Origin: an uncultured Gammaproteobacteria bacterium
Lineage (GTDB): Bacteria > Pseudomonadota > Gammaproteobacteria > GCA-001735895
Reading direction: 5' to 3'
Length of the DNA stretch: 37,295 bases
Assembly (NCBI GenBank): GCA_963976575.1
Contig: CAXBMV010000001.1
Coordinates: 1 to 37,295, forward strand
Shown here piece by piece: positions 3,091-37,295 of this stretch. Position 1 is the stretch's first letter. Each line of letters opens with the position of its first letter. The notes beneath the pieces are model-generated. The model did not search any database and was not told the DNA's origin. It worked only from the letters and a program-made list of their open reading frames with translations. A program made the translations under genes and the position numbers.

Positions 3091-3096
3091 ATTCGA

Positions 3097-4455
3097 TTAA
3101 CGAGATTGCATGGCCTGAATCAGGCGATTGTGTATGTTATCAAAGCCTCCATTGCTCATAATAACGATTTGGTCTTGTTGCTGACAATTATCGACCAAAT
3201 AACGAATAATTTCTTCGATATCGGCCTTGATTTCGACATGGGCGCTGCTAGCCGCCATGGTTGGAGCTATATCCCAGCTCAAATCCGGATTGTCGCAGAG
3301 TAAAACCTGATCGGCGGCATCAAGCGCTCGCCCGAGTTGCGCGGCGTGTATTCCCATTTTCATCGTATTGGAACGGATATCGAGCACTGCGAACAGGCGC
3401 CCCGGTGTGTTGTGTTTTAACGCCTGCAGGGTTACTTCGATGGCGCTTGGGTGGTGGGCAAAATCGTCGACAATGCGCACACCGTCTATTTCGGCGATGA
3501 TTTCCTGACGACGTTTTACGCCTTTGAACTGTGCCAGCGCCTCTAGTGAAACTTCGATGGAGACGCCGGCGTGACGTGCAGCGAGGATCGCGGCGGTGGC
3601 GTTTAGCGCGTTGAACTGTCCGCTCTGGGGAAGCACGAGCGGGTAACGCTGCTGGCTTGCGCTATCCTGCAAAACCGAATCGGCATCCAGGTAGAAATCG
3701 GTCTTGCCGGGGGTGAGCGAAAATCCGCATTGCTCACTCCAGCAACCCTGGGCCAGCACTTGCTGAAGCGCAGCGTCATCGCGATTATCGATGATCATCG
3801 CGCTCGCCGGCAGCGTACGGATGAGATGATGGAACTGTCGCTGAATCGCGGCGAGGTCGTCGAAAATATCGGCGTGATCAAATTCCAGATTGTTTAGTAT
3901 CAGGCTGCGCGGATGATAGTGAATAAACTTCGAGCGCTTGTCGAACAGTGCCGAATCGTATTCATCCGCCTCGATCACAAAAAACGGGCTGTCGCCGAGT
4001 TTCGCCGACTGCGAGAAATTCTGGCTGATGCCACCTATGAGATAACCCGGGTTGAGTCCTGCGTATTGCAGGATCCAGGCGAGCATGCTGCTGGTGGTGG
4101 TTTTGCCGTGGGTGCCGGCCACTGCGAGTACCCAGCGATTCTGTAGTACCTGCCGGTATAACCATTCTGGCGCGGAACTATAGGGCAGGCCGCGATCGAG
4201 AATTGCCTCAAGCTGCGGGTTGCCGCGAGAAATAGCGTTACCGATGATGTAGCAGTCGCAATCCTCGGGCATCGAGTCGACGCTGTAGCCTTCGTGCAAG
4301 CGGATTCCGGCCTGCTCCAGCTGGGTACTCATCGGTGGGTAGACGCCGGCATCCGAGCCTTCCACCTCTATGCCAAGCTCGCGCGCCAGCAGCGCGATTC
4401 CAGCCATGAAGGTGCCGCATATGCCAAGGATATAAATTTTCACTTGAACATCCAT
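3097..4455 (-). CDS. mpl: UDP-N-acetylmuramate:L-alanyl-gamma-D-glutamyl-meso-diaminopimelate ligase
   Basis: 452 aa. It is colinear with E. coli Mpl as I recall it: ILGICGTFMAG, VAGTHGKTTT, EADEYDSALFDKRSKF, NNLEFDHADIFDD, DDFAHHP, RSNTMKMG and MSNGGF. Confidence 0.92.
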   Translation of the reverse strand: MDVQVKIYILGICGTFMAGIALLARELGIEVEGSDAGVYPPMSTQLEQAGIRLHEGYSVDSMPEDCDCYIIGNAISRGNPQLEAILDRGLPYSSAPEWLYRQVLQNRWVLAVAGTHGKTTTSSMLAWILQYAGLNPGYLIGGISQNFSQSAKLGDSPFFVIEADEYDSALFDKRSKFIHYHPRSLILNNLEFDHADIFDDLAAIQRQFHHLIRTLPASAMIIDNRDDAALQQVLAQGCWSEQCGFSLTPGKTDFYLDADSVLQDSASQQRYPLVLPQSGQFNALNATAAILAARHAGVSIEVSLEALAQFKGVKRRQEIIAEIDGVRIVDDFAHHPSAIEVTLQALKHNTPGRLFAVLDIRSNTMKMGIHAAQLGRALDAADQVLLCDNPDLSWDIAPTMAASSAHVEIKADIEEIIRYLVDNCQQQDQIVIMSNGGFDNIHNRLIQAMQSR

Positions 4456-21156: not shown

Positions 21157-22059
21157 ATGGCGATAGTAGATCTTAGGGAGTTTGAGGAGGAGTTTGTAGT
21201 CCACTTCGGGACCGAACGAACTCGCATTAACGCTTATACCCTCGCTTCAACTTTAGTAGCTATCGCGGATGCAACTCGTGAGGCAAATCAGATTGTTAAT
21301 CCAGGCTACTCTGTTGAGGTAGTAGTTGAAGCAATTAGCCCTGGAAGCTTTCGGGCAAAGTTCAAAGCCGTTTACACCGGCGCTGGCAATTTATTCTCGA
21401 ATGACAATCTAAAGACTATCGCCCTAAATGTAGTGGCATCATATATATTTGTAAATACCTTAGCACCAGATACAGAAGTTTCTGTGCGAGTAGATGATTC
21501 TCAAGTGATTATCGAGCAAGGCGACAAAACAATTATCGTGTCTAAAGAAACACACGACGCGATGAAAAATGTCGAGAAATCCCAGAAGTTTCGTCAAGAC
21601 ATAGGTAAGGCATTTTCTGCAGTAGAAAAAGACCAGGAAATTCACAGCATTGGTATCGCTCGCTCTCTCGATGATGAAAAATCGCCGCTTGAGATACCGC
21701 GTCAAAATTTTGGTTTGCTGAGCCAAGAAGCGATTCTTGAATCTGATAAGAGAGAACTTATTGAAGCCGCAGACTTAGAAATACTAAGGGCGGTTCTTGA
21801 GCGCAGCAAACGCAAATGGGAATTTGTTTGGCGAGGCGTCAAGATATCCGCACCTGTTCTGGATGAGAAATTCTTTGATGATTTTTTCGCTCATCGGATT
21901 ACAATTGCACCAGGCGATGCACTTCGTGTTCAACTTAAAATTTACCAACGCCGAAATGAGGACACTGGAATATATACTAATGAGCGATATGAGGTTACAC
22001 GTGTAGACGAGCACGTGCCACGTATGACCCAGATTGAAAATCCCCAAGGATACGTCTAA
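21157..22059 (+). CDS. hypothetical protein
   Basis: 300-aa ORF with an AAGGA-type RBS upstream. I recognised no domain. It is the first gene of a pair with the DUF3800 gene. Confidence 0.6.
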   Translation: MAIVDLREFEEEFVVHFGTERTRINAYTLASTLVAIADATREANQIVNPGYSVEVVVEAISPGSFRAKFKAVYTGAGNLFSNDNLKTIALNVVASYIFVNTLAPDTEVSVRVDDSQVIIEQGDKTIIVSKETHDAMKNVEKSQKFRQDIGKAFSAVEKDQEIHSIGIARSLDDEKSPLEIPRQNFGLLSQEAILESDKRELIEAADLEILRAVLERSKRKWEFVWRGVKISAPVLDEKFFDDFFAHRITIAPGDALRVQLKIYQRRNEDTGIYTNERYEVTRVDEHVPRMTQIENPQGYV

Positions 22060-22137: not shown

Positions 22138-23268
22138 ATGCCACAAAAAATCTACTTTGATGAATCGGGTTTTACTGGGAATAACCTGCTCAATAACAAT
22201 CAAACGATGTTTTCATACGGATCAGTAGCAACTTGCGATGATGAAGCTAGAGACTTTGTTGAATATCTGATTAAAAAGTATGGTGTTCAAAATGGTGAGC
22301 TAAAAGGCAGTAAACTAATAAAATACAATAAGGGAAGGAAGGCCATCTCAGAAATATTTGATATATTTCAAGGAAGAATCAAAGTGTCATTGTCAGATAA
22401 AAAGTATGCACTATCAGGAAAATTCTTTGAGTATATATTTGAACCATGCTTTTCTGAGAACAACTCATTATTTTATAACATTAACTTTCATCGTTTCATT
22501 GCCAACATTCTCCACTTGGAGTTTGTTGCAAGAGGAGCTGGTGCCGAGGAAATATTCTCAGATTTTGAAGAGTTGATGAGGAACAGCGATAATCCAGAGC
22601 TTGAGTCTCTATTCAGCACAACCGTACATCCTGAAAACTCACCAATAATGGTTCAAATTAGGGAGTTCGCACTTTGTCAAAAAGGAGCCATAAAAAAAGA
22701 ATTAGCTTCTTTGCCAGGTGATGGTGTTGCAAAGTGGATTCTTGATCTTACAAATACAGCTCTTTTCTCTTTGTTGGCTAATTGGGGGCTAGAGCATGAG
22801 CAGCTAACAGCAATATGCGATGACGCAAAACCCTTGCAGCATGATCAGCAACTATATAACGCAATGATAAATAGAGAGGATAAACACTTTTCACATATGG
22901 GAGGGGAAAAGCATCCAATTACTTTCAATTTATCCGGGCCCATACAGTTAGTTGACTCAAAAACTTATCATGGTGTGCAACTTGCTGATGCAGTTGCAGC
23001 GGCTTCAATATATGCAGTAAGTGGAGCGTCCGATAAACACGCAGAGGAATGGAAAGGTATCATTCCTGATATAGCCATTTATGGTAGTTTGTTGCCAGAT
23101 TATGATTATGTCGATTTAAATCGATATGAGGTGCAACGAAATGCAGTTGTAATGCTTGAATTGCACTCAAGAGCTACAAAAAACCAATCTTTGCTAGACG
23201 GTATGCCTGAGTATATAAATATAATTACGCAAGAACTGATTCATAACCCATTGCAAATAAATGCATAA
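22138..23268 (+). CDS. DUF3800-family protein
   Basis: 376 aa. The N-terminal KIYFDESGFTGNN matches the DESG motif at the start of DUF3800 proteins. This is recognition from memory. Confidence 0.6.
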   Translation: MPQKIYFDESGFTGNNLLNNNQTMFSYGSVATCDDEARDFVEYLIKKYGVQNGELKGSKLIKYNKGRKAISEIFDIFQGRIKVSLSDKKYALSGKFFEYIFEPCFSENNSLFYNINFHRFIANILHLEFVARGAGAEEIFSDFEELMRNSDNPELESLFSTTVHPENSPIMVQIREFALCQKGAIKKELASLPGDGVAKWILDLTNTALFSLLANWGLEHEQLTAICDDAKPLQHDQQLYNAMINREDKHFSHMGGEKHPITFNLSGPIQLVDSKTYHGVQLADAVAAASIYAVSGASDKHAEEWKGIIPDIAIYGSLLPDYDYVDLNRYEVQRNAVVMLELHSRATKNQSLLDGMPEYINIITQELIHNPLQINA

Positions 23269-24029: not shown

Positions 24030-24514
24030 TTAAAGCTCCAGGCAGTTAACCACCCAGAGATTGTGATGAATCTCGGTTACTTCGCTGTTGAGTTCAAGAT
24101 CCCTTGCTATGCTGGTGTAATCAATATGGTTACGGATTAAGTCAGGTAGTTGATCCAATTGATATAAGTCCTCTACAAGCTCAAAGGCATAGTCTGCCAG
24201 GCTACCTCGATGCAGGATAACTTCGTCCCTTCGTTTGATAGCTTCATCAAGGTGCATGATCTCTATCAGGTAGCAGATGGCTGATGCTTCATGACTATCG
24301 TCTGAATACTTGTCCAGCTCATCGAACCAGATATCGACGTTACCCTGGTTAATGTTAGTGGCGTTAAACACACGAGGGTTATCACCGTCGATGTATTCAT
24401 TTCGACTTCTTCGTAGAGAGATTTATTCATGTTGCTTTCAAACTCTTCGGTGCTGGTGAAATAGAAACCGGTGTAGCTGGTGTCGTAAGGGTTTGCGTAT
24501 AGGGTCGTTGTCAT
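24030..24514 (-). pseudogene. ArdA-like antirestriction protein, interrupted by an apparent -1 frameshift
   Basis: The N-terminal part (MTTTLYANPYDTSYTGFYFTSTEEFESNMNKSLYEEVE) is in one frame. The rest (NEYIDGDNPRVFNATNINQGNVDIWFDEL...IDYTSIARDLELNSEVTEIHHNLWVV) is in another. The frames switch at an A-run near 24395-24405. Both halves resemble ArdA-family proteins as I recall them. Confidence 0.6.
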
Positions 24515-24578: not shown

Positions 24579-25046
24579 TCATAGCAGCCCTCGCTCAGCA
24601 AACGAAATCACCTCTTCACCAACGATCAGATGATCGAGAACTCGAACATCGATTAAAGCTAATGCATCCTTCAGCCGTTTTGTGATCCTCTCGTCAGCCA
24701 GGCTCGGCTCTGCGATTCCGGACGGATGATTGTGGGCAAAGATAACAGCTGCAGCGTTACAGCTCAGGCAGGCTTTCAAGACCTCTCTGGGATAAACTGA
24801 AGCACTGTCAATGGTTCCTCTGAACAGCTCATCAAAAACAATCACTCTGTTACGGTTATCTAGGAAAAGACAGGCGAATACTTCGTGCTCGTAAGCGAAA
24901 AGCTTAAGCTTTACGAAGTCCTTGCTAGCTTGCGGACTGGTCATTGGTATTGAGTCTGGATCGTATAAAAGTCGAGATTCCAGAATCTTAAGTGCCGACT
25001 CAATAATGGCATCGTCGTTTGATATAGCGATTTGATTTGTGTTCAT
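24579..25046 (-). CDS. radC: RadC-like JAB/MPN domain protein
   Basis: 155 aa with the JAMM motif AHNHPSG and LLDHLIVG-type C-terminal blocks. This is the short stand-alone RadC form typical of islands and prophages. Confidence 0.85.
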
Positions 25047-26795: not shown

Positions 26796-26883
26796 TAGAA
26801 TCAGGATAATGGGTTTTTGGGGAATCATCCCCAAATGGTTATATGTTGAACCTAAGTAAATAAATTCAAATAAATATTTGACT

Positions 26884-27687
26884 ATGAGAATTTCAATATC
26901 AACGGAGATTCAATCCATTAAGGCAATAAAGCCGCTTGAATTGAACCCTAGTTCGTATTTTGATGCTAGGGAAAGACGGATGCAGGAGCGCCATTTCTTA
27001 ACATGCAATTGGGGGGCGATTGAAGAATTGGAACTTGCCCCTCCGGAGAAGGGATGCAGGTCGGACATCTATTTCGGAATTGTTTCTGGTTTGAGCGATA
27101 TGTTCTGGGCCCAGTTTGGTGACCTTGAAAAAACTCCAATTGGCGAAATCGAACTTAATGAAAAAATAAAGGTTCCAGAGTTACGAGTTGAAAACTTAAA
27201 ACAAGTCATCTCCAAACTGGAAAGCGGAGTATCTAACTTTCCACTAGAAATTTTAAATTATCACGTTCTTCTGCAAGAAGGTAATAAACGATCAGCGGTT
27301 TTCGATGGCTGGTCAAATAATTATATAGGTCTCCATGCAGATTTTCTTACTTCATGGGGCTGGGAGAATCGTAATACTTTAGAGCGAAGACTGATTGTAA
27401 ACTTAGGGGATTCCCCTAGAGTATTAGCAATATCAAACGATGATTTGATTTCTCTTAGAGATAAATATGCTGACAAGTTCAGCGAGAAAGAATGGTCTCG
27501 TTTTACCGCTACCCCAAACAGCTTTTTTGTATCAAAAGTACTCGAATGTATAGGTCCAGATTTAATAACAGGTTATATCTTGGAACCTAATGAGTTTTGC
27601 ATCTTTCCAGCTCAAAACCACATCCACGATGGATTTACAGAAGGTTTTACGGATTTTGATGTCGTGCTTAATTGCCTAGTTAACTAG
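26884..27687 (+). CDS. hypothetical protein, possible double-stranded beta-helix (Fe/2OG oxygenase-like) fold
   Basis: Track ORF 26878..27687; I prefer the ATG at 26884. I recognised no family. Candidate metal ligands are GLHADF (HxD) and a distal NHIHDG about 100 residues later. This is suggestive only. Its stop abuts the rSAM start (TAG-GTG). Confidence 0.55.
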   Translation: MRISISTEIQSIKAIKPLELNPSSYFDARERRMQERHFLTCNWGAIEELELAPPEKGCRSDIYFGIVSGLSDMFWAQFGDLEKTPIGEIELNEKIKVPELRVENLKQVISKLESGVSNFPLEILNYHVLLQEGNKRSAVFDGWSNNYIGLHADFLTSWGWENRNTLERRLIVNLGDSPRVLAISNDDLISLRDKYADKFSEKEWSRFTATPNSFFVSKVLECIGPDLITGYILEPNEFCIFPAQNHIHDGFTEGFTDFDVVLNCLVN

Positions 27688-28803
27688 GTGCGACAAATGG
27701 ATCAAGTGAAATACTTGATGCTACAGCCCACCTCTTTTTGCAATCTCGATTGTAAGTATTGCTACCTACCAAATAGAGATAATCGTGGGAAACTTGGACG
27801 CGAGACGGTGGAGCGTCTCGTACATCTCATTAACAAAGATCATTGGTTGCTAAATCCGAGGTTATCGGTCATATGGCACGCCGGAGAACCTCTGGCATTG
27901 CCCTTGAAAAAGTTTGAAGAATTAGTAATTGAAGTAAATAAAATTCGAAATGTCTCAATTCAGCACTTTATTCAAACAAACGCAACGCTAATTTCTGACG
28001 ATTGGGCAAGTTTTTTTCAGAAATACAATATTCGAATCGGTGTCAGTATAGATGGCGCACAAGAGTCACATGACTCTCAAAGACAATACCGAGATGGGCG
28101 TGGGTCGTTCAAAAAGGCAATGGAAGGTATTTCAGTTCTGCAGAAGAAGAACATTCCTTTTTCATTAATTGCGGTAGTTACCAAACAATTTTTAAATAAC
28201 ATAAATGGAAACATTCATTTTCTAGCTTCTCTTGGTGCAAAACGAATTGGGTTAAATTTTGAAGAAATCGAAAGCTCAAACTTTAAATCCTCGTTAACTG
28301 GGGAAGAGTTGGGGGAGCCGATGGGTGAGATTTATAGCAGTCTACTAGAATTGCACAATTGCGGAAAAATTCGCTCACGAGAAATCGATAGATTATTTCA
28401 GCCCGGGAAGTATAGCGACTCCGATGCTTTTTGCTCAGACCTAAAGCCATTTTCTTTCCTTAACGTTTCAAGTGCCGGTGATCTAAGCACATTTTCTCCG
28501 GAACTACTTGATGCGACTTTCAGGCGACGAAATTTTATATACGGAAATATTCACAAGGTTAAATCTTTAACGGAACTATTTTCTAGTTCATTGCTTCAGA
28601 GCGACTATAAGGAAATACTATCTGGTATTGCTAAATGCAGGAAGGAATGTGAATTTTTTGAGAACTGTGGAGGGGGAGAGGCTTCCAATAAAGTATTCGA
28701 GAACGGCACTTTTGCTAGTTCAAATACAATGCACTGCTATGTAAAAATCCAAGTGCCTATTTCCTGGGCCTCGGGCAGCAAGAATACAAAGGTCAAATTA
28801 TGA
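27688..28803 (+). CDS. radical SAM enzyme with C-terminal SPASM-type auxiliary cluster domain
   Basis: 371 aa. The N-terminal CNLDCKYC is the CX3CX2C motif. GEPL and anSME-like body blocks are present. C-terminal Cys-rich CRKECEFFENCGGGEA...HCY is typical of SPASM/twitch maturases. An alternative ATG start is at 27697. Confidence 0.85.
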   Translation: MRQMDQVKYLMLQPTSFCNLDCKYCYLPNRDNRGKLGRETVERLVHLINKDHWLLNPRLSVIWHAGEPLALPLKKFEELVIEVNKIRNVSIQHFIQTNATLISDDWASFFQKYNIRIGVSIDGAQESHDSQRQYRDGRGSFKKAMEGISVLQKKNIPFSLIAVVTKQFLNNINGNIHFLASLGAKRIGLNFEEIESSNFKSSLTGEELGEPMGEIYSSLLELHNCGKIRSREIDRLFQPGKYSDSDAFCSDLKPFSFLNVSSAGDLSTFSPELLDATFRRRNFIYGNIHKVKSLTELFSSSLLQSDYKEILSGIAKCRKECEFFENCGGGEASNKVFENGTFASSNTMHCYVKIQVPISWASGSKNTKVKL

Positions 28804-29063: not shown

Positions 29064-29164
29064 TGTAGACATCGTAGACAATTATCCAGAACATCGCGTG
29101 GTGTCACTGTAGACATCGAGACATCTCGATCCAATGCCTAGCTGGTTTTTGTATGTAGACATCG
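29064..29164 (+). repeat. three direct copies of TGTAGACATCG, spaced 44 and 46 bp
   Basis: Copies lie at 29064-29074, 29108-29118 and 29154-29164, with partial echoes TAGACA (29075-29080) and GAGACATC (29119-29126). They sit in a noncoding gap between the RiPP cluster and the 3' end of the minus-strand operon. Confidence 0.8.
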
Positions 29165-29407: not shown

Positions 29408-31972
29408 TTAATATTCTTGCTGCCCCTCTTCCACTCCCGCTTTTATTACCGAGATAGCTAGAGCCGCTTCATGGGCAGGCAACTCTTGCAGGCGATACAA
29501 CAAAGCACCTAGTGCTGGCCTCCAAAAATTGGCACCCCAAAATCCTTCTGTATCTTCATCTAGAATCTCTTCCAGTTCAACTTGGACATCCTCTTCGCGC
29601 AAGAACTTTATTTTTTTGTCGAGAGAAATACGTACACTCAAGGCCTCAATATTTTTCGGCAAAGGCAGTCCCGCTACCCCATTGGAAAGCGACAAAATAA
29701 TACATGGCCGTTTGGTCTGCTCATGAGCCACAAGCCGTTGTTGTACAAGGTCGATCAAATGGCGGGCGTAAACATCTAAGGGTGAGAGGTTTGCGTCTAA
29801 AAGAACTACAGACCTGTTGTCGCTATCAAAATCTTTTTTAAATTGATGATCCCCTGTAACACCGATCCCGCAATCAAAAATCAGGCAACCCGATTTGTCT
29901 TTAGATCCCCACGCCTCTGCTATGAGCCTGGCTGCGATACCTTCTAAAACAAGAACTAGACCGGCGTCTAAAACAACATGTCCCGCCTGCTCTAATGCCG
30001 TAGCATGTTTCGATGATAGACCTATTGATTTCAAAGTATCGGTCAAAGGTTCGTTTTCGTGTTCCTTGGTTCTAAAGCTGTTAGCTATCTGCTCATTATT
30101 GATGGATTGACTTGGTTTATCGTTATTTTCGGGTTTGTTAATAAGCTCATCATAAATAACGACTTGCCCAAGCGTATCCAGCACTTCTGCTTTCGCCTTC
30201 TTAAGTGATTCCTTGACTGCTTTATTTATAGAGGAAGGTATTGCCTTCAGATCCTTTTCTTGCTTTGAATTTGCCTTTTTTAACTCCGCACTCTGTTTCT
30301 TAATTTTCTCAAGCTCATCCAGTAGTTCACTTTTTTCATTTATCCGAAGTTCAACTATTTTTTGGATCTCCTGATCAATTCTCACCTTGACCCTTTCATG
30401 TGTCATGGCTTGTTCTAACAAGGTGTCAATACCACTATCATGACTCTCAATATATTCTAACTCTTCCAGTAATCTTGCTTTACGCGAATCATTTTGATGT
30501 CCCTCAGCAGAATTTATCCACTCTAGTAATTTTCTCTGCTGAGCTTTTGTTAAATTATCAGGATTATCGTTGTTGCTGTTAAAAAATTTCTTTAGCGTGG
30601 ATGCTAACGTAGAGCATTCGTAAACTTCATGTGCAGGCAGTGGGCCGAGCACATGCAATCTTCCCTCAAACCTAAAAGCTTCCAGAGATCTCCAACACGG
30701 CATTCCCTCATCAAATCCATCATCTCGAGTTAAATCCTTTCCTTGAGGGCATCCAAGTATTAGCCCATCACGAAGCTGGAATAGATAGGGAGCTGTTTGA
30801 TCCAATCCAGATCTCGAAAACTGTTCTTTTATGTATTCGCGAACAGAATCATAGTCGGTGGAGTTAAATGGCACTAACTGAAGTTCGTATACGAGAGATT
30901 TTGTGCCTTTTAAATGATAGTTAGTAAAATGATCCGCGCTACCAGGTTCGTTTCTATCAATATGCCAAATACCTAGTTCATGCTTTTTAGGTTGTTTCGG
31001 ATAGTGCTGCCCAGTAAATGCTTGAACATCCCCCGAATTAGGAAAAAGAGACCTTCTGATCTCCTTGTCCTCTAGAGACAATAATCTGCCATCCCAAGAA
31101 TGAACTGCGAAGGGCTGCACAAACACAGCTGTCGCTGGTGAGTCTTTAGTGCACTTACCCACAATTTGGTCTCTATCGAAATCGAAAAGCGGCTCTTCAA
31201 AATGGTCTAGTTGAGTTATCTGGACCCCAGATGGGGCTGACTTAGAAGTACTTTTCTTCTTTGCTACACTTTTTGAATATTCGAATAGTATATTGGAGAT
31301 ATCGTTGAGGCCGAGATCGCTAAGAGCCTCCATCGAATTTTGAGTTCCTTCACTCTCTCCTTGTTTGATAAAGTACAACCCGGATAAAAAATTTGCTATC
31401 CCTTGTCGCTGATTCACCAGGTATTCATCAGGATCTTTCCCGTCAAAAACAGCTATCAAAGCAAGAGCGAGATTGGGATCAGAAAAGGAATCATCGTGGT
31501 TTACATTTTCTTCCACAGTTGTTCGCTCTTCTTCAGATGCTTGTTCGAGATCAGAATCCTGATCAGAACCATCTGGGGAAGATCTTAGGAAACTTAAAAG
31601 CTTTCCTGACAAACTGTCTGAGAATAAATGAATCAAGCAAGAACGAGCAAATCGTTTAGCATCATTTTCAGAAAGACTCTCAGTTGAATCTTCATACAGA
31701 GAATATGTTTCAACTATCTCATCAACGCTTTCAGGCTCTATCAGCGATAGATTTTTTGAAAGCCAATTTTGCACAATAGGTTCCGTAGGCTCTGGGAGAT
31801 TTAGCATGGCGGTAATTCGAGCCTCGCCTCCACGAGGTAGGTTCTGGACCTTCGCTCCCTTCATAATTAGCATGGGTCGATTAGCTGAAAAAAATTGGCG
31901 CAGCTCATCGCCACTCATACCGAAGTGAAGCAAGTATTTAAACCGTGATCTATTTATTCCTTTGTATGCCAT
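29408..31972 (-). CDS. large uncharacterised protein with acidic linker and C-terminal coiled coil; last gene of the Druantia-like operon
   Basis: 854-aa ORF that overlaps the upstream gene by 23 nt (alternative ATG at 31918). It has an acidic stretch (DGSDQDSDLEQASEEERTTVEEN) and a long heptad-like region (ELEKIKKQSAELKKANSKQEKDLK). No domain recognised. Confidence 0.7.
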   Translation of the reverse strand: MAYKGINRSRFKYLLHFGMSGDELRQFFSANRPMLIMKGAKVQNLPRGGEARITAMLNLPEPTEPIVQNWLSKNLSLIEPESVDEIVETYSLYEDSTESLSENDAKRFARSCLIHLFSDSLSGKLLSFLRSSPDGSDQDSDLEQASEEERTTVEENVNHDDSFSDPNLALALIAVFDGKDPDEYLVNQRQGIANFLSGLYFIKQGESEGTQNSMEALSDLGLNDISNILFEYSKSVAKKKSTSKSAPSGVQITQLDHFEEPLFDFDRDQIVGKCTKDSPATAVFVQPFAVHSWDGRLLSLEDKEIRRSLFPNSGDVQAFTGQHYPKQPKKHELGIWHIDRNEPGSADHFTNYHLKGTKSLVYELQLVPFNSTDYDSVREYIKEQFSRSGLDQTAPYLFQLRDGLILGCPQGKDLTRDDGFDEGMPCWRSLEAFRFEGRLHVLGPLPAHEVYECSTLASTLKKFFNSNNDNPDNLTKAQQRKLLEWINSAEGHQNDSRKARLLEELEYIESHDSGIDTLLEQAMTHERVKVRIDQEIQKIVELRINEKSELLDELEKIKKQSAELKKANSKQEKDLKAIPSSINKAVKESLKKAKAEVLDTLGQVVIYDELINKPENNDKPSQSINNEQIANSFRTKEHENEPLTDTLKSIGLSSKHATALEQAGHVVLDAGLVLVLEGIAARLIAEAWGSKDKSGCLIFDCGIGVTGDHQFKKDFDSDNRSVVLLDANLSPLDVYARHLIDLVQQRLVAHEQTKRPCIILSLSNGVAGLPLPKNIEALSVRISLDKKIKFLREEDVQVELEEILDEDTEGFWGANFWRPALGALLYRLQELPAHEAALAISVIKAGVEEGQQEY

Positions 31973-33536
31973 TTCCGAAGTTTCTATTTGGTCTCTTATA
32001 CTTTGATGAAGCGAGTATGTATGTCATTAAAGGACTAGCTAATAGGCTTCCGAGCCGCTGAAGATTATTTTGATTCGGATTATTAATGAAATTTGAGGCG
32101 ATACTAGCTGTTCGAGAATCGTATCTGCAGCGAACAACGTTTAAAATCCACTTTTCCATGTTCGATCCAATTTTCTGATTTACAGGAACCAAGAGTAAAT
32201 CGTCATCTGTCTTAGATCTGGCCGGCCGTATTTCTCCAAAGCCTCCTGCTAGCACTATTTTTTCAGATTTTTTAGGCATCGTTCCAATCAGGCCATCAAA
32301 TTTAAGATCCTCATTAACCTTTTCGACGTACCTTGCGAGTCGATCATTACTGCATATGACCTTAATTTCTCTTGCATATAGGTCCGTTTGCTTTAGATCA
32401 GTATCTGATATTAAATTCCACCGTAAATCTTCAGAGCTTAACTCAATACCATTTGGTTGTATGAGACAGCATTCCTCTACTCTAATAACAACCTGTTCAA
32501 TCCCGTCAATCAGTATAGTTACGTCTTGATCATTTAGACGGAGCCCTTCTATTTGAACGCGTTCGTCGGTAACAATGCTGAATCTAGCATTTCCAATAGA
32601 GTCTGCTGCACCTTCGATACTTATCTCGTGCGACGGGGTTTTTTGAACAACTAGAACTTCGGGTGAATCGGGGTAAATATATGCTCCATCAACCCCAATA
32701 TGATGAGGTAGGGGATGAACAACGCATGCACGTGGTCGACGCCCTCGAATGGCGCGATCGAAAAATGCTGATATACCTTCTTTTACTGAATTAAATGTAG
32801 ATGCATTGAACGTAGATGGTAACTCTACTTCGTAAACTTTCCAGTCCGCCAGAGCGCCGCGCAGCGTCCATTCAATATACGCCAAAATGTTTTCGGGCGG
32901 TAAGATTGAATCTGCTGAAACTATCCAGTATTTGCCACTCCATTCTAATGGCTCATTCTCGAATAGTATTCTCCCCCTTCCTTCACTGACGGAAAATAGA
33001 TTCATATTAGCACTGAACAGACTGGTCTGTTCGTTAATATGGTCTGATAAAGGTAGAAGGTCTCTTTCCGCTCCACACTCTAACAATGGAACCTCGGGAG
33101 TTACCGTTAACGTATGAACTTTACATAGTTGAGCTATCGTAAATTCTTTGAGCCCCGTTTTATGTTGAATCCATAAGGATCCTGTCAGCTCTGTACTGAA
33201 TGGTAATGAAGGAATGCGTACGGAAAGCTCGAAATTCGAAAACTCCTGGCGATAAGATAAAAACAATCCGCAAAGTAAAGAGTCACGCCTAGGGTAAAGA
33301 GATTCAACCTTACTCGCTGATTGCGATTTGAATCGATTTACAACGTCGGACGGGGGATGATAAAGTTCACAATCAGGTTTGGCCCGATGGCTGTAGTGCG
33401 CAAAGTGCGGTCTGCGCATCGCTCCTTGTCTCAAATGAACGGGCTCACCACAAGTCGGGCAACTCATGCCATAGCCAATATATACCCCTCTTTGGGCGCG
33501 GACGATCTTTCCTCGATAGTCCTTCGCCCAATCCAC
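31950..33536 (-). CDS. uncharacterised protein with N-terminal CoiA-like zinc finger
   Basis: 528 aa. The GTG start overlaps the stop of the upstream gene (TAGTG). The N-terminus CPTCGEPVHLRQGAMRRPHFAHYSHRAKPDC resembles the CxxC...HFAH motif of CoiA-like proteins. Confidence 0.7.
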   Translation of the reverse strand: MDWAKDYRGKIVRAQRGVYIGYGMSCPTCGEPVHLRQGAMRRPHFAHYSHRAKPDCELYHPPSDVVNRFKSQSASKVESLYPRRDSLLCGLFLSYRQEFSNFELSVRIPSLPFSTELTGSLWIQHKTGLKEFTIAQLCKVHTLTVTPEVPLLECGAERDLLPLSDHINEQTSLFSANMNLFSVSEGRGRILFENEPLEWSGKYWIVSADSILPPENILAYIEWTLRGALADWKVYEVELPSTFNASTFNSVKEGISAFFDRAIRGRRPRACVVHPLPHHIGVDGAYIYPDSPEVLVVQKTPSHEISIEGAADSIGNARFSIVTDERVQIEGLRLNDQDVTILIDGIEQVVIRVEECCLIQPNGIELSSEDLRWNLISDTDLKQTDLYAREIKVICSNDRLARYVEKVNEDLKFDGLIGTMPKKSEKIVLAGGFGEIRPARSKTDDDLLLVPVNQKIGSNMEKWILNVVRCRYDSRTASIASNFINNPNQNNLQRLGSLLASPLMTYILASSKYKRPNRNFGNGIQRNK

Positions 33537-34741
33537 TACTTTGCCGCCTCTCGCTCGTAATTATCTGTATCATCATACTCATCGGAAGAAATTAATTTGA
33601 GGAAATTTTCTCTCTCCCAATCCCTATATTTTGGCATACGCTCAGATCTAGGTATGACCCAGCGGCTAAGGGCATTACTAGCACGTTTCTTGACCGTGGG
33701 TAAGCCGACATAACGAGCTTTCTTGTTTTCTCCCCGTAGTAGTTTGATTGCGTTCGAAGCTAGTGGACAGAAAAAAACTTCCCGAGTAAGACCATGTCGA
33801 GCTAGCGCAGGGTTCATTCCAAGTCGGGAAAATGCTTGCCTTACAACTCTGAGGCGATAGTTCGGCCCTTGGCCATAATCGTGTGAATCGAAAGATTCAT
33901 CGCCTATCGATTCTAAATAGTTTTTGAGTTCGATAAACAAATCATTTGATATATGAAAATGCCCCCAACCAGATGTATATCCAATAGATTCGAAAATAGT
34001 ATTGCCATCCAAACGAAGCCTATTGTAAACAGAAGAACGACCTAAAGCTGAAGTCGTTGTAACTACTGCTAATTGAGCATTTTTACTCTTGCCCGAAATA
34101 AGACCCACAGAATCATAGTATTTAGAATGAAAAGCGTTTACGACATCTCGTGTTTGAATAAGACTGGCAATGAGTTTGCCACCTAAAAGCATATTGTATG
34201 GAGGAACCGCTCCTAACACATATGCATCCATCAAATTTACGAGAGCTTCAGATCTTCGATAATGATCCCAACCGATAAGCTCATCACGCGCTTTAAGATT
34301 AAATACAGCATCGCCTAATGCGAAAATACCGATTAATTTCCCATTACTATCGTCCCAAACGAGGAATCTCATTCGCCGCCCATATCCCTCAGATATAGGA
34401 ACACTCCAATAGTAAGTAGCGAGACGAAACAGATTGGACTGCCACGTGCCTGCTCTTATAACTTCTAACCGTGGTCGGATATCTTTAACTCGTATATCTG
34501 CCCCGGATGCAAAGTAATTTATTAGTTTGTCAGCGTGACCATTGATCCAACGACCATTATCTGCAAGTTTGACCTCTCTTTGATAAGAATGCATGTTGCG
34601 ATATGATTGCTTATCAAATCCCGGGGGTACAAGCTCCCCGTCTTCACCTTTGGTGAAATTTAGCTTCTTAAAGTGTTGTCGGATTTTTCGACGTAGACGC
34701 GCTTCCGCTCCTGGAATCTTAACTATCTTAGATTTACTCAT
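33536..34741 (-). CDS. DUF4338-like protein (DruA-like)
   Basis: 401 aa with an ATGA start/stop overlap with the helicase gene. From memory, the block GYGRRMRFLVWDDSNGKLIGIFALGDAVFNLKARDELIGW...MDAYVLGAVPPYN resembles DUF4338, the DruA family of type I Druantia. An HMM search is needed to confirm. Confidence 0.6.
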   Translation of the reverse strand: MSKSKIVKIPGAEARLRRKIRQHFKKLNFTKGEDGELVPPGFDKQSYRNMHSYQREVKLADNGRWINGHADKLINYFASGADIRVKDIRPRLEVIRAGTWQSNLFRLATYYWSVPISEGYGRRMRFLVWDDSNGKLIGIFALGDAVFNLKARDELIGWDHYRRSEALVNLMDAYVLGAVPPYNMLLGGKLIASLIQTRDVVNAFHSKYYDSVGLISGKSKNAQLAVVTTTSALGRSSVYNRLRLDGNTIFESIGYTSGWGHFHISNDLFIELKNYLESIGDESFDSHDYGQGPNYRLRVVRQAFSRLGMNPALARHGLTREVFFCPLASNAIKLLRGENKKARYVGLPTVKKRASNALSRWVIPRSERMPKYRDWERENFLKLISSDEYDDTDNYEREAAK

Positions 34742-37295
34742 ACAAGGACTCCATACGCGCCAGGTAAATCTCTAGATAATTCATAAGATGAGAATGCAAT
34801 TGTTGAACTGTTGGAATCAAATCCATAATGTTCTGGTCGCACAAGTGAGGGAAACGAATATAACTTAACCGTTTTACCTTCGTTGTTGGTTGCAATTACT
34901 GGGGCGATATTAGAACTAGACAACTGCCAACCTGCCAACTCGAGCATGTCCGCAAGCGGGCTCAAAATATTTTTTTGAGCATCAATAGAAAGAATTTGAG
35001 GCAGAGTACCCTTGATAAGATAATTGAGTAGATCGAGGCCCAAAAACCGATCCAAGGTTGAATGATGAAATCGATTTCCATAGTGCCGTAAACATTTATC
35101 GCAGGAAGAGCTGCAATCACAGTTGGTTAGCAACTTCTCAACCTGGGCAAGCACGCTTCCTATTACCTCTCCAGCCTGAGTAGCATATCCAGCACCTCCC
35201 GATAGCGTGTCATAAACAAAGATGTCTACAAAATTCTCTTCCCGAACAGGTTGAAATCTGAAACCCGCATTTATTTCTCTGATGTCAATGTCCAATTCTC
35301 TTCCAACACCCAAAACAATTGCTTCAGCAAGAGATTGAATAGCGTCAGAAATTGGAGCTCTTTCAAGCCGATCAACAGGGTTGAATCTTAGCTCTGTACT
35401 TATAGGAATATGAATCAACAATGCATCAGAATTAAAGCTGTATCCAAGATATACTCTCTCGAAACGTCCTAGGCACCGGCGACTAGAGGTGTTTCTCCCC
35501 GAAACGTTGTAATCACGTTCATGCGCACCCTGGTTAGCTTCATCAACGGCAGTTTTTCCGCACTGATTACATATTGAAAAACCATCGTGTTGGCCATTTT
35601 CCTCCTCACCTTTGTTAACCATGACGAGTTGCTGATCTCTGGCAAAAGCAATTTCACAATTTTTACCGAACTTCTTCCAATTGAAGTTACTATCTTCTGG
35701 TACCGATAGCTGAGCATTGGTCGCACTAGTAAAGACTTGATCGTCGTCGTATTCATCCACCTCTCGGCCACCGTCAGGAAATACGACTTGCGGGACAATA
35801 ACTTTCCTTGCTTCAAGTGCAGCCATACCACATAAAGGACATTCCTCGCCGCTAGGTTCTACTAACCTGAACCCTGGTGTAAACTCACATTCTGGGCAAA
35901 ATATATAGTACCGTCGCTCGGAAAAAAGTCTTGATGAACGATTCTCCACCGCAGTCGAACCGTTGGCAGCCACCGAGCCGATTCTATATGTCTTCTTATC
36001 GATAACTACAAATCGACCGGGGGCATACTCAGAGAGTGCGATATTGAGGCCTTGCTGGGGTCGTTGAATAATATTAACTTTTGTAAAGCCGTTTCGCACT
36101 TCAGGTGGCCCCTCAATTTGAAGAGCGCACAAATCCCTAGGAAAGGCATAAGAAGGAAGAAACCCGCGACTAAACAAGAACTCAATTAGTTTAAGTTCTG
36201 AGGTTTCTAGTTCATCTTCATTTGTGGGGCGAATGCGTTTCAATTCATCAAGAAACTCAACGGCCACAGTGTAAGGAGTTTTTGTATATGACTTTGGAAG
36301 CCATTCTTGAATAGCTGTAAAACAAGACTTAGCTGAATCCGCCGTTTCTAACCAACCCCTAAACGCCAGCAAGCTAAATGCACTCGCTACATTATAAAAC
36401 TCCAGTGTCTTACCTAAGACAGAGAAAACATCAGAACCACTTGGGATCGGGTTCTCAAAGTGGAAATATGCTTGTACTAGTTGAGCACGAATATGCCTCT
36501 CGATAATTTTGGGGTTTTCAATGTCTATTCCAGGGAGTGTGGGTTCACCAGATATAATTTGTTCAGGATTGTCAAAATAGTGATTGTCGTGAGGACTATT
36601 TTGGGCATAAGTCAACACAGTTGAGACTGCTGAGCCTCTGCGTCCAGTGCGGCCCGCACGTTGTTGATAGTTTTGTCTTAAGGGTGGAACATTACGGAGA
36701 CCAACAGCCACCAATGACCCTATGTCAATACCAACTTCCATTGTTGTAGTGCTACTCAGAACATCGATTGATGTATCAGATGGTTTTACAATAATATCCC
36801 TGAACAGGCGCTCAAAGTCTTCCGTAGTTGTGCTCGAGTCTTCAACATCACGATAGGATAACTGTGCTGTATGCTCTTCGACCGACAAATTGAAAGGGCT
36901 TACTTTGCCACGTAGAACATCAACTACGGGGTCTCTGAAAAAGGCCTTACGCGCACGCAAGTAATCTGTCTCCCCAGGGTTAACTGCAATTGTACCTGAC
37001 GCTAAGCAAGCCGAGCAGTGACCCCACCAATCAGAGGGGGAAACTGCAGCACAATATGGGCACTGAAACCAATTTTGGCCTTCTGTGGACAAACTTAGAG
37101 AGAGTTTATTTGGGTCCAAAAAAAGGCCATCCCGACTAGGACTCGAATGACACATAACCTCAGCAAAAACTTGGCAAATTTCTTCTAAATTTGTAACCTT
37201 ATCATTCAAGAAATCTTGGACCTGGCGATTGAAACCGCCCATTTGGTTTAGCCCGCCAGATAGTAGGTGGCCGGCAGCTTTTATTCTAACGCCTT
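34738..37295 (-). CDS. superfamily-2 helicase C-terminal part fused to a DUF1998-like zinc-binding domain (DruE-like); 5' end outside window
   Basis: The reading frame has no stop between 37243 and the window edge, so the ATG at 37242 is internal. Helicase motif V/VI-like sequences are TTTMEVGIDIGS and QQRAGRTGRRG. CxxC pairs include CPYC/CSAC, CPEC/CPLC and CNQC. The C-terminal YDTLSGGAGY...CDCSSSCDKCLRHYGNRFHH is typical of DUF1998. Confidence 0.8.
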   Translation of the reverse strand, partial: GVRIKAAGHLLSGGLNQMGGFNRQVQDFLNDKVTNLEEICQVFAEVMCHSSPSRDGLFLDPNKLSLSLSTEGQNWFQCPYCAAVSPSDWWGHCSACLASGTIAVNPGETDYLRARKAFFRDPVVDVLRGKVSPFNLSVEEHTAQLSYRDVEDSSTTTEDFERLFRDIIVKPSDTSIDVLSSTTTMEVGIDIGSLVAVGLRNVPPLRQNYQQRAGRTGRRGSAVSTVLTYAQNSPHDNHYFDNPEQIISGEPTLPGIDIENPKIIERHIRAQLVQAYFHFENPIPSGSDVFSVLGKTLEFYNVASAFSLLAFRGWLETADSAKSCFTAIQEWLPKSYTKTPYTVAVEFLDELKRIRPTNEDELETSELKLIEFLFSRGFLPSYAFPRDLCALQIEGPPEVRNGFTKVNIIQRPQQGLNIALSEYAPGRFVVIDKKTYRIGSVAANGSTAVENRSSRLFSERRYYIFCPECEFTPGFRLVEPSGEECPLCGMAALEARKVIVPQVVFPDGGREVDEYDDDQVFTSATNAQLSVPEDSNFNWKKFGKNCEIAFARDQQLVMVNKGEEENGQHDGFSICNQCGKTAVDEANQGAHERDYNVSGRNTSSRRCLGRFERVYLGYSFNSDALLIHIPISTELRFNPVDRLERAPISDAIQSLAEAIVLGVGRELDIDIREINAGFRFQPVREENFVDIFVYDTLSGGAGYATQAGEVIGSVLAQVEKLLTNCDCSSSCDKCLRHYGNRFHHSTLDRFLGLDLLNYLIKGTLPQILSIDAQKNILSPLADMLELAGWQLSSSNIAPVIATNNEGKTVKLYSFPSLVRPEHYGFDSNSSTIAFSSYELSRDLPGAYGVLV

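What the first reader, a model, noticed from the sequence alone, without database searches (positions are those of the whole stretch)
29408..37295. Druantia-like operon with permuted order: helicase-DUF1998 first, then DUF4338, then two unknown proteins
Four minus-strand genes are translationally coupled, with overlaps of ATGA, TAGTG and 23 nt. The first is a large SF2 helicase ending in a DUF1998-type Cys cluster (DruE-like). The second resembles DUF4338 (DruA). Established knowledge: type I Druantia is druA-B-C-D-E with the helicase last, and types II and III also end in druE. Here the helicase precedes the DruA-like gene and only two further genes follow (528 aa and 854 aa). The 528-aa size is compatible with DruB. 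The 854-aa protein fits neither DruC nor DruD by size, though a fusion is possible. This points to an undescribed Druantia-related architecture or a distinct system that reuses the DUF4338 and DUF1998-helicase modules. It sits in an AT-rich island alongside antirestriction and other defence-like genes.
Basis: partly seen in the sequence, partly recalled or inferred. Interest (0 to 1): 0.8.

Follow-up and report, generated by a model that had tools for sequence, protein, structure and literature searches.

The report
Reordered five-gene Druantia type I operon
This is a phage-defence operon of the Druantia type I family whose five genes are cyclically rotated (D-E-A-B-C instead of A-B-C-D-E) and whose last gene is a type I/type II mosaic; it represents a recurrent, apparently unnamed sub-lineage, not a new kind of system.

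Summary
Four tightly overlapping minus-strand genes lie at 29408-37295 (junctions ATGA, TAGTG, 23 nt).

- **Helicase:** it matches DruE1 (PADLOC 2.4e-268) and is cut by a scaffold gap at the window end.
- **401-aa protein:** this is DruA (Pfam PF14236, 1.8e-83).
- **528-aa protein:** this is a full-length but very divergent DruB (profile-profile 99.9%).
- **854-aa protein:** this is not a DruC-DruD fusion. Residues 4-616 match type II DruG, and the C-terminal ~300 residues match type I DruC, with a degenerate AAA+-like fold.
- **The helicase is not first:** the parent contig and 19 related genomes carry a DruD homologue directly upstream, overlapping druE.

The operon is therefore druD-druE-druA-druB-druC', a cyclic rotation of the canonical druABCDE. 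No sixth gene is conserved, and no canonical system sits alongside.

Among 80 species-level DruA loci, 18 complete and 3 truncated loci show this order. They form one clade in both DruA and DruE trees and occur in Burkholderiales, Xanthomonadales and other groups.

Defence function and mechanism are inferred by homology only. Verdict: a new variant of a known kind, of moderate interest.

The parts
34738..37295 (-). druE, C-terminal 851 codons only. The full gene encodes 1753 aa on the parent contig and the window ends at a scaffold gap inside it. YprA/MrfA-family SF2 helicase.
   Evidence: PADLOC DruE1 2.4e-268, matching profile positions 910-1767 of 1776. 39% identical and colinear to E. coli type I DruE to its C-terminus. 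Full gene at L001:493-5754, with motif I GTGSGKT and motif II DEAH read directly.
36634..36804 (-). DruE RecA2 / Helicase_C segment, including motif VI (QRAGRTGRRG)
   Evidence: Pfam PF00271 6.3e-07, residues 164-220 of the 851-aa translation. Motif read.
35089..35328 (-). DruE MZB / DUF1998 zinc-binding domain (Cys cluster CDCSSSCDKC)
   Evidence: Pfam PF09369 2e-11, residues 656-735.
33536..34741 (-). druA (401 aa). DUF4338 domain, described in the literature as a GNAT-like acetyltransferase fold.
   Evidence: Pfam PF14236 DruA 1.8e-83. PADLOC DruA1 1.5e-179. 51% identical to E. coli DruA. GNAT assignment from PMC10853773.
31950..33536 (-). druB-like gene (528 aa, GTG start). N-terminal CxxC...HxxH...C zinc ribbon, then several beta-sandwich domains and a helical C-terminus.
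   Evidence: hhalign of this clade's profile against canonical DruB: 99.9%, E 4.7e-35, 497 columns. PADLOC DruB1 and BLASTP see only the first ~66 aa. Pfam CoiA_N 1e-09. AF2 model pLDDT 81 with no PDB fold match below 1e-3.
33369..33461 (-). DruB zinc ribbon (aa 26-56). C26, C29, H44, H47 and C56 are invariant in 38 homologues.
29408..31972 (-). druC' (854 aa), a mosaic of DruG-like and DruC-like parts
   Evidence: PADLOC DruG2 3.4e-47 (aa 5-643) and DruC1 2.2e-06 (aa 495-770). Family of 409 representatives at 50% identity.
30125..31963 (-). DruC' residues 4-616: helical domain, beta-rich domain and long coiled coil, homologous to the N-terminal two-thirds of type II DruG
   Evidence: hhalign of A3 against a bona fide DruG (P0354, from a DruM-DruF-DruG-DruE locus): 99.9%, E 1.4e-35, aa 4-610 vs 5-607. 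AF2 secondary structure.
29414..30073 (-). DruC' residues 634-853: alpha/beta AAA+-like domain with a degenerate Walker A (no GK[ST]) and LDANLSP in place of Walker B hhhhDE. Homologous to the C-terminal part of type I DruC.
   Evidence: hhalign against canonical DruC: 99.3%, E 1.1e-20, 539-838 vs 253-583. BLASTP against E. coli DruC: aa 647-770, 21% identity. Foldseek top hits are AAA+ modules (dynein, Mg-chelatase BchI, TRIP13, katanin, FtsH) at E 5e-4 to 3e-2. Motifs read.

Best explanation
**What it is.** The region is the larger part of a five-gene Druantia type I-lineage anti-phage operon, transcribed right to left in the window in the order druD-druE-druA-druB-druC'. druD and the N-terminal half of druE lie beyond the window end.

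**Components.**
- **DruE** is a YprA/MrfA-family SF2 DNA helicase with intact ATPase motifs and a zinc-binding MZB domain.
- **DruA** is a DUF4338 protein with a GNAT-like fold.
- **DruB** is a zinc-ribbon plus beta-sandwich protein.
- **DruC'** joins a DruG-like helical, beta-rich and coiled-coil region to a DruC-like AAA+-type domain that appears catalytically dead.
- **DruD** has no recognisable domain.

**Likely mechanism (inferred, not shown).** DruE is the ATP-driven motor that loads on phage DNA replication or recombination intermediates, as recent preprints report for type III DruE. In types I and II its own C-terminal nuclease is reported to be inactive. The four accessory proteins, made in fixed stoichiometry through translational coupling, would then supply recognition, scaffolding and effector or modification activity. 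DruC' would provide the coiled-coil scaffold and DruA possibly the modification activity. Epigenetic self-marking, as reported for the E. coli type I system, may also be involved.

**The rotated order.** It is a stable, inherited trait of a distinct sub-lineage. It most simply arose by tandem duplication of an ABCDE operon followed by loss of the outer genes.
For: **Shown here**
- Family assignment of all five genes. Negative cross-controls for the profile comparisons gave probability below 1%.
- The canonical order in E. coli, with PGAP names druA to druE.
- The same D-E-A-B-C' order and gene sizes in B. pseudomallei, Variovorax and a 2.57-Mb scaffold, and in 18 complete plus 3 truncated of 80 species-representative loci.
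- No conserved sixth gene, and no A-B-C upstream of D or D-E downstream of C'.
- The ATGA overlap between druE and druA in 17 of 19 loci.
- The permuted loci are monophyletic in NJ trees of DruA and of DruE rooted on a type II DruE.
- A second rotation, C-D-E-A-B, in L079.
- The AAA+-like fold of the DruC' C-terminus.

**From the literature**
- DruE of types I and II has an inactivated Vsr-like nuclease domain, and these systems encode an inactivated McrB-like (CnuB) protein with a coiled coil (PMC12458937).
- Type III DruE acts on ssDNA or forked intermediates (abstracts).
- E. coli type I expression is reported to add m6A at CAGCTGNC (10.1101/2024.04.14.589459).
- DUF4338 is described as GNAT-like (PMC10853773).
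Against: - No experiment exists on this lineage. Defence activity is inferred from homology and island context alone.
- DruB, DruC' and DruD are so divergent from the characterised E. coli proteins that function may differ. BLASTP identity is 21-34% over parts only, and PADLOC E-values are only 1e-6 to 1e-10.
- The N-terminal 500 aa of DruC' has no counterpart in type I DruC.
- The McrB-specific relationship of the C-terminal domain was not demonstrated. Foldseek gave only generic AAA+ matches with weak E-values.
- The window's own druE contains a scaffold gap, so its intactness cannot be fully verified.
- The trees are NJ without bootstrap support.
Confidence: 0.82

Rival explanations
1. Two partial systems lie side by side: the tail (druD-druE) of one canonical druABCDE operon abuts the head (druA-druB-druC) of a second, so the permutation is only apparent.
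For: The parent contig ends 500 nt upstream of druE, so in this particular contig what precedes druD cannot be seen.
Against: - In 19 related loci with 4-10 kb of flank there is no druA/B/C upstream of druD and no druD/E downstream of druC'. The flanking genes are unrelated between loci.
- druE and druA overlap by ATGA in 17 of 19 loci.
Confidence: 0.02
2. It is a distinct, non-Druantia system that merely reuses the DUF4338 and DUF1998-helicase modules together with unrelated partner proteins.
For: - Standard profiles barely see the partners. PADLOC DruB1 matches only the first 60 aa, DruC1 scores 2e-06, and Pfam and NCBIfam give nothing.
- Public annotation calls the 854-aa family 'hypothetical protein'.
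Against: - Profile-profile comparison gives full-length homology for DruB (99.9%) and DruD (99.9%). It gives C-terminal homology for DruC (99.3%), with clean negative controls.
- DruE scores far better against DruE1 than against DruE2, DruE3 or DruE4.
- In the DruE tree the clade is sister to the canonical type I clade.
Confidence: 0.06
3. It is a type I/type II recombinant, an intermediate. A type I backbone (D, E, A, B) acquired the N-terminal module of type II DruG, or type II DruG and type I DruC both descend from a C'-like ancestor. On this view the lineage should be classed as its own type, not as type I.
For: - DruC' aa 4-616 aligns to genuine DruG (99.9%) but not beyond. Its C-terminus aligns to DruC.
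- In the 1.84-billion-protein library, the ~940-aa relatives match only profile positions up to about 620.
- Bell et al. group types I and II together.
Against: - There is no DruM methyltransferase and no DruF in or next to the operon.
- DruE is clearly E1-like (892 vs 323 bits).
- This is a matter of classification and is compatible with the best explanation.
Confidence: 0.1

Closest known systems
Druantia type I (druABCDE; E. coli UMEA 4076-1 type, here compared with E. coli strain 165, NZ_CP020509.1)
   Same: - All five protein families are present. DruA is 51% identical and DruE 39% identical and colinear. DruB and DruD are homologous over full length by profile comparison, and DruC over its C-terminal ~300 aa.
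- The druD/druE overlap is kept.
- Gene sizes are similar for A, B, D and E.
- The operon sits in a low-GC island.
   Different: - The gene order is D-E-A-B-C' instead of A-B-C-D-E.
- DruC is 854 aa instead of 627 aa, with a different N-terminal ~500 aa.
- B, C and D are too divergent for BLAST or PADLOC to recognise beyond fragments.
- The lineage forms a separate clade in both DruA and DruE trees.
Druantia type II (druM-druF-druG-druE; example L088)
   Same: The N-terminal ~610 residues of DruC' (helical, beta-rich and coiled-coil parts) are homologous to DruG. Both have a DruE helicase.
   Different: There is no DruM methyltransferase and no DruF. DruA, DruB and DruD are present. DruE scores as E1, not E2. 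The C-terminal domain of C' does not align with that of DruG.
'Type IV CoCoNuT' grouping of Druantia I/II (Bell et al. 2025, PMC12458937)
   Same: A YprA-like helicase is paired with a coiled-coil protein carrying a P-loop/AAA+-type domain that lacks catalytic motifs.
   Different: A McrB/CnuB-specific relationship was not shown here. The paper's text does not describe this gene order or the DruG/DruC mosaic, and its figures could not be read.
Druantia type III (druH-druE)
   Same: It shares the DruE helicase core, which is the only mechanistically studied Druantia component.
   Different: Type III DruE carries active PLD nuclease domains and works with DruH alone. Here there is no DruH, and DruE scores much lower against the E3 profiles.

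Membership tests
Druantia type I | DruA with a DUF4338 (PF14236) domain | tested here: met
   Pfam 1.8e-83, above the gathering score. PADLOC DruA1 1.5e-179. 51% identical to E. coli DruA.
Druantia type I | DruE: large SF2 helicase with a DUF1998/MZB domain, of the E1 kind | tested here: met
   PADLOC DruE1 892 bits against E2 323, E4 268 and E3 258. Pfam MZB and Helicase_C. Colinear with E. coli DruE.
Druantia type I | DruB homologue | tested here: met
   hhalign 99.9%, E 4.7e-35, 497 columns. Single-sequence and PADLOC methods detect only the N-terminal zinc ribbon.
Druantia type I | DruC homologue | tested here: inconclusive
   Only the C-terminal ~300 aa are homologous (hhalign 99.3%). The N-terminal ~500 aa match type II DruG instead.
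Druantia type I | DruD homologue | tested here: met
   It lies outside the window, on the parent contig (L001:3-500). It scores 3e-40 against the clade's DruD profile and 3.2e-10 against the canonical DruD profile. Full-length relatives hit PADLOC DruD1 at 7e-10 to 8e-09. hhalign 99.9%.
Druantia type I | Gene order druA-B-C-D-E as originally described | tested here: not met
   The order here and in 20 further loci is D-E-A-B-C'. E. coli shows A-B-C-D-E. Detection tools do not use order, so this bears on subtype, not on family.
Druantia type I | Protects against phage; each gene required | not testable with these tools
   No experiment on this lineage was found in the searched literature.
Druantia type II | DruM cytosine methyltransferase and DruF | tested here: not met
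   No methyltransferase domain in any operon gene. No conserved extra gene in the flanks of 19 loci. Compare the true type II locus L088.
Druantia type II | DruG | tested here: inconclusive
   The N-terminal 610 aa are homologous. The C-terminal domain does not align.
CoCoNuT-like (inactivated CnuB/McrB-type GTPase with coiled coil) | Coiled coil followed by a McrB-like AAA+ domain lacking catalytic motifs | tested here: inconclusive
   The AF2 model shows a long coiled coil at 476-611 and an alpha/beta domain at 634-853. Foldseek hits are generic AAA+ modules at E 5e-4 or weaker. Degenerate Walker A and B motifs were read from the sequence. No McrB-specific match was obtained.

The most novel reading that the evidence does not exclude
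The D-E-A-B-C' lineage is an unrecognised Druantia subtype that links types I and II, because its last gene carries the DruG N-terminal module fused to the DruC C-terminal module. Two different cyclic rotations were seen (D-E-A-B-C' and C-D-E-A-B) and no other shuffles. This points to operon rotation by tandem duplication under a constraint that keeps D next to E and A next to B next to C, perhaps for co-translational assembly of two sub-complexes. If true, it gives a natural handle for dissecting the still unknown type I mechanism.
Probability: 0.45. Interest if true: 0.5.

Novelty: new variant of a known kind. Interest (0 to 1): 0.42.

Why it matters
Type I Druantia gives broad protection in E. 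coli, but its mechanism is essentially unknown. Four of its five proteins have no assigned activity.

A second, deeply diverged lineage helps in three ways:
- It has the same five families, a different order and a mosaic DruC/DruG. Conserved residues across the two lineages mark the functional cores.
- The preserved adjacencies (D-E and A-B-C) suggest sub-complexes.
- The mosaic shows that DruC and DruG are built from exchangeable modules, which ties types I and II together.

There is also a practical point. Current annotation names only DruA, and sometimes DruE, in these genomes. PADLOC profiles barely touch B, C' and D. This lineage is therefore probably under-counted in defence-system censuses, including in Burkholderia pseudomallei, Achromobacter and Stenotrophomonas.

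Tried and rejected
- **Nucleotide and protein searches of reference collections.** Megablast of the region against complete E. coli genomes and against PLSDB plasmids found nothing. tblastn of the 854-aa protein against plasmids found nothing. The lineage is absent from those collections.
- **NCBIfam.** No Druantia hit for any component. PGAP's dru names evidently come from other rules.
- **PDB by sequence.** Profiles of DruA, DruB and DruC' gave only coiled-coil noise or nothing.
- **Foldseek of the DruB model against PDB.** Only insignificant Ig-like and filamin matches, so no enzymatic fold was identified.
- **DruC-DruD fusion idea for the 854-aa protein.** Rejected. DruD is a separate upstream gene, and the 854-aa profile does not match DruD or DruB.
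- **Search for a conserved sixth gene.** I looked for a methyltransferase or nuclease in the flanks of 19 loci and found none.
- **tRNA or integrase boundary for the island.** No tRNA in the window, so the island limits were not defined.
- **Supplement of Bell et al. 2025.** It covers DruE domains only and gives nothing on gene order.
Full report
**1. The observation**

ORF listing finds four co-directional minus-strand ORFs. They lie at 34738-37242 (helicase), 33536-34741 (401 aa), 31950-33536 (528 aa, GTG start) and 29408-31972 (854 aa).

The helicase frame has no stop up to the last base of the window, so the gene is truncated. The window is part of TARA_SAMEA4397215_METAG-scaffold_1614 (40,419 bp). 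It ends at an N-run inside the helicase gene, which is 1753 codons long on the full contig.

The public gene call for the last gene is 836 aa. The 854-aa start is better supported, because the first 18 residues are conserved in 40 homologues.

GC drops from 0.52-0.56 in the first 15 kb to 0.39-0.46 from about 20 kb onward. ArdA and RadC genes lie a few kb away.

**2. What the four genes are**

- **Helicase.** Pfam finds Helicase_C and the MrfA zinc-binding (DUF1998) domain. PADLOC scores it as DruE1 (2.4e-268, profile positions 910-1767 of 1776), far above DruE2, DruE3 and DruE4. It is 39% identical and colinear with E. coli type I DruE to the very C-terminus. On the full contig the ATPase motifs are intact: GTGSGKT, DEAH and QRAGRTGRRG.
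- **401-aa protein.** It matches PF14236 DruA (1.8e-83) and PADLOC DruA1 (1.5e-179). It is 51% identical to E. coli DruA.
- **528-aa protein.** Pfam and PADLOC recognise it only through its N-terminal zinc ribbon (CoiA_N 1e-09; DruB1 1.8e-06 over aa 7-65). BLASTP against E. coli DruB aligns 66 residues.
- **854-aa protein.** It hits PADLOC DruG2, the type II component, at 3.4e-47 over aa 5-643. It hits DruC1 weakly over aa 495-770.

**3. The fifth gene**

On the parent contig a partial ORF (165 codons, cut by the contig end) stops 8 nt inside the start of druE. It has no Pfam or PADLOC hit by itself.

Homologues of the 854-aa protein sit in identical contexts in three places: Burkholderia pseudomallei, Variovorax sp. 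GB1P17 and a 2.57-Mb metagenomic scaffold. In each there is a 309-330-aa gene overlapping druE, then druE (~1750 aa), druA (400 aa), a ~520-aa gene and a ~855-aa gene.

The full-length upstream proteins hit PADLOC DruD1 at 7e-10 to 8e-09. The window contig's fragment matches a profile of these proteins at 3e-40 and a profile of canonical DruD at 3.2e-10.

So the helicase is not the first gene. The operon is druD-druE-druA-druB-druC'.

**4. Are B, C' and D true homologues of the type I proteins?**

The canonical reference is E. coli strain 165, where PGAP annotates druA, druB (548 aa), druC (627 aa), druD (347 aa) and druE (1836 aa) in that order.

I built profiles from the related loci and compared them with hhalign:

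| Comparison | Probability | E-value | Aligned region |
|---|---|---|---|
| B vs canonical DruB | 99.9% | 4.7e-35 | 497 columns, full length |
| D vs canonical DruD | 99.9% | 2.3e-36 | 294 columns |
| C' vs canonical DruC | 99.3% | 1.1e-20 | C' 539-838 vs DruC 253-583 only |
| Cross-comparisons (B vs C, C' vs B, D vs B) | <1% | n/a | n/a |

A profile of 40 C' homologues aligns to a genuine DruG over C' residues 4-610 and DruG residues 5-607 (99.9%), and not beyond. That DruG is P0354, which lies in a DNA-methylase / 929-aa / 938-aa / 1981-aa-helicase locus.

An exhaustive HMM search of 1.84 billion representatives finds 409 relatives. Proteins of about 840-860 aa match end to end. Proteins of about 905-960 aa (DruG-size) match only up to profile position ~620.

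The 854-aa protein is therefore a mosaic of a DruG-like N-terminal two-thirds and a DruC-like C-terminal third. It is not a DruC-DruD fusion.

**5. Structure**

The AlphaFold2 model of DruC' (pLDDT 78) shows four parts:
- a helical domain (1-241);
- a beta-rich domain (249-451);
- a long coiled coil (476-611);
- an alpha/beta domain (634-853).

Its best PDB matches are AAA+ modules: dynein, Mg-chelatase BchI, TRIP13, katanin and FtsH. E-values are weak, from 5e-4 to 3e-2.

The sequence lacks a GK[S/T] P-loop. It has LDANLSP where Walker B hhhhDE would be, and D726, A727 and N728 are invariant or near-invariant in the family. This fits the statement by Bell et al. 2025 that Druantia I and II encode an inactivated McrB-like (CnuB) protein with a coiled coil. 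I did not obtain a McrB-specific match.

The DruB model (pLDDT 81) is a zinc ribbon followed by several beta-sandwich domains and a helical tail. It has no significant PDB match.

DUF4338 is described by Aravind and colleagues as a GNAT-like acetyltransferase fold (PMC10853773). I did not test this.

**6. How common is the arrangement, and is it a lineage trait?**

I scanned one genome per GTDB species with a DruA alignment. This returned 80 loci, which I classified with phmmer against window, B. pseudomallei, Variovorax and E. coli proteins.

| Arrangement | Loci |
|---|---|
| D-E-A-B-C', complete | 18 (plus 3 truncated but consistent) |
| A-B-C-D-E, complete | 17 (plus 4 partial or truncated) |
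| DruA / ~953-aa unknown / DruD / DruE | 25 |
| C-D-E-A-B (L079, a Planctomycetota MAG) | 1 |
| DruA alone | 13 (many on short contigs) |

Carriers of the rotated order include:
- Burkholderiales: Achromobacter pestifer, Castellaniella, Variovorax, Polaromonas, Aquabacterium;
- Xanthomonadales: Stenotrophomonas, Pseudoxanthomonas, Dokdonella;
- Methylophilus and Azoarcus;
- MAGs assigned to Planctomycetota and Nitrospirota.

All rotated loci form one clade in an NJ tree of DruA, separated from everything else at the midpoint root. They also form one clade in an NJ tree of DruE rooted with a type II DruE, where they are sister to the canonical clade. Neither tree has bootstrap support.

No further gene family recurs in the 4-kb flanks of 19 such loci. 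The druE/druA ATGA overlap is present in 17 of 19. These results exclude two ideas: that the arrangement is two partial systems abutting, and that a canonical druABCDE sits upstream.

**7. Mechanism**

Nothing is known experimentally for this lineage.

From established knowledge of the family, DruE is a YprA/MrfA-type SF2 DNA helicase. 2026 preprints on type III report that it engages ssDNA-containing or forked phage intermediates (abstracts). In types I and II its C-terminal Vsr-like nuclease is predicted to be inactive.

An E. coli type I system was reported to cause m6A at CAGCTGNC. No methyltransferase has been identified in it.

My best inference is a multi-protein machine with these roles:
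- DruE provides ATP-driven translocation or unwinding.
- DruC' is a coiled-coil, dead-AAA+ scaffold.
- DruB is a zinc-ribbon DNA- or protein-binding subunit.
- DruA is a candidate modifying enzyme.
- DruD is unknown.

Translational coupling would fix the stoichiometry. All of these roles are inferred.

Only cyclic rotations of the order were seen (D-E-A-B-C' and C-D-E-A-B). This is what tandem duplication followed by terminal loss would produce. It also keeps D next to E and A next to B next to C.

**8. Comparison and novelty**

The system meets four of the five component criteria of type I outright. It meets the DruC criterion in part. It fails only the canonical order. It lacks DruM and DruF of type II.

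The searchable literature gave no description of this order or of the DruG/DruC mosaic. Bell et al. [quoted passage not shown] Public annotation calls the 854-aa family 'hypothetical protein'.

I rate it a new variant of a known kind. It is useful for dissecting type I and for improving detection profiles, but it is not a new category of system. Interest is 0.42.

Noticed in passing
L042:10001-20761 (Paraburkholderia sp. EB58); likewise L084, L032, L040, L046 and others: A third DruA-linked architecture appears in 25 of 80 species-representative loci: DruA, then an unknown ~953-aa protein, then a strong DruD1 match (PADLOC 9e-117), then DruE (~1850 aa). The 953-aa protein has no Pfam or PADLOC hit and no profile similarity to DruB, DruC or DruD. 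These loci form their own basal clade in the DruE tree. This architecture may be less described than the finding itself.
   Followed up: partly
L079:1309-13003 (Planctomycetota MAG, WSZJ01000004.1): A second cyclic rotation of the type I operon, druC-druD-druE-druA-druB, with PADLOC-confirmed DruC1, DruD1 and DruB1. It groups with canonical-order systems in both trees.
   Followed up: partly
window 29065-29162: Three exact copies of GTAGACAT, plus partial copies, lie within about 100 nt of the 600-nt convergent intergenic region just downstream of druC'. The window holds 5 copies in all, against 0.72 expected. This may be a protein-binding array. The function is unknown.
   Followed up: partly
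window 21157-22059 (+) and 22138-23268 (+): The 300-aa ORF matches the PADLOC candidate defence family PDC-S42 (3.6e-20). The adjacent 376-aa ORF carries DUF3800 (1.7e-10). These are further defence-island-type cargo.
   Followed up: no
window 26878-28803 (+): A 371-aa radical SAM protein gives weak hits to prokaryotic viperin profiles (5.9e-11). It is directly preceded by an abutting 269-aa ORF with no family hit. The pair lies convergent to the Druantia operon.
   Followed up: no
window 24030-24371 (-) and 24579-25046 (-): ArdA antirestriction and RadC-like genes. They are typical of the leading regions of conjugative or integrative elements and suggest the island is or was mobile. No tRNA gene is present in the window.
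   Followed up: no
L002:672-7229: In a 2.57-Mb metagenomic scaffold the same operon has druE split by an IS3-family insertion (HTH_Tnp_1 plus rve genes at 2503-3674). This is a naturally inactivated copy.
   Followed up: no
window 16150-19146 (+): A 998-aa fused CheB methylesterase / CheR methyltransferase / PAS protein lies at the edge of the higher-GC part of the window, just before the low-GC island begins.
   Followed up: no
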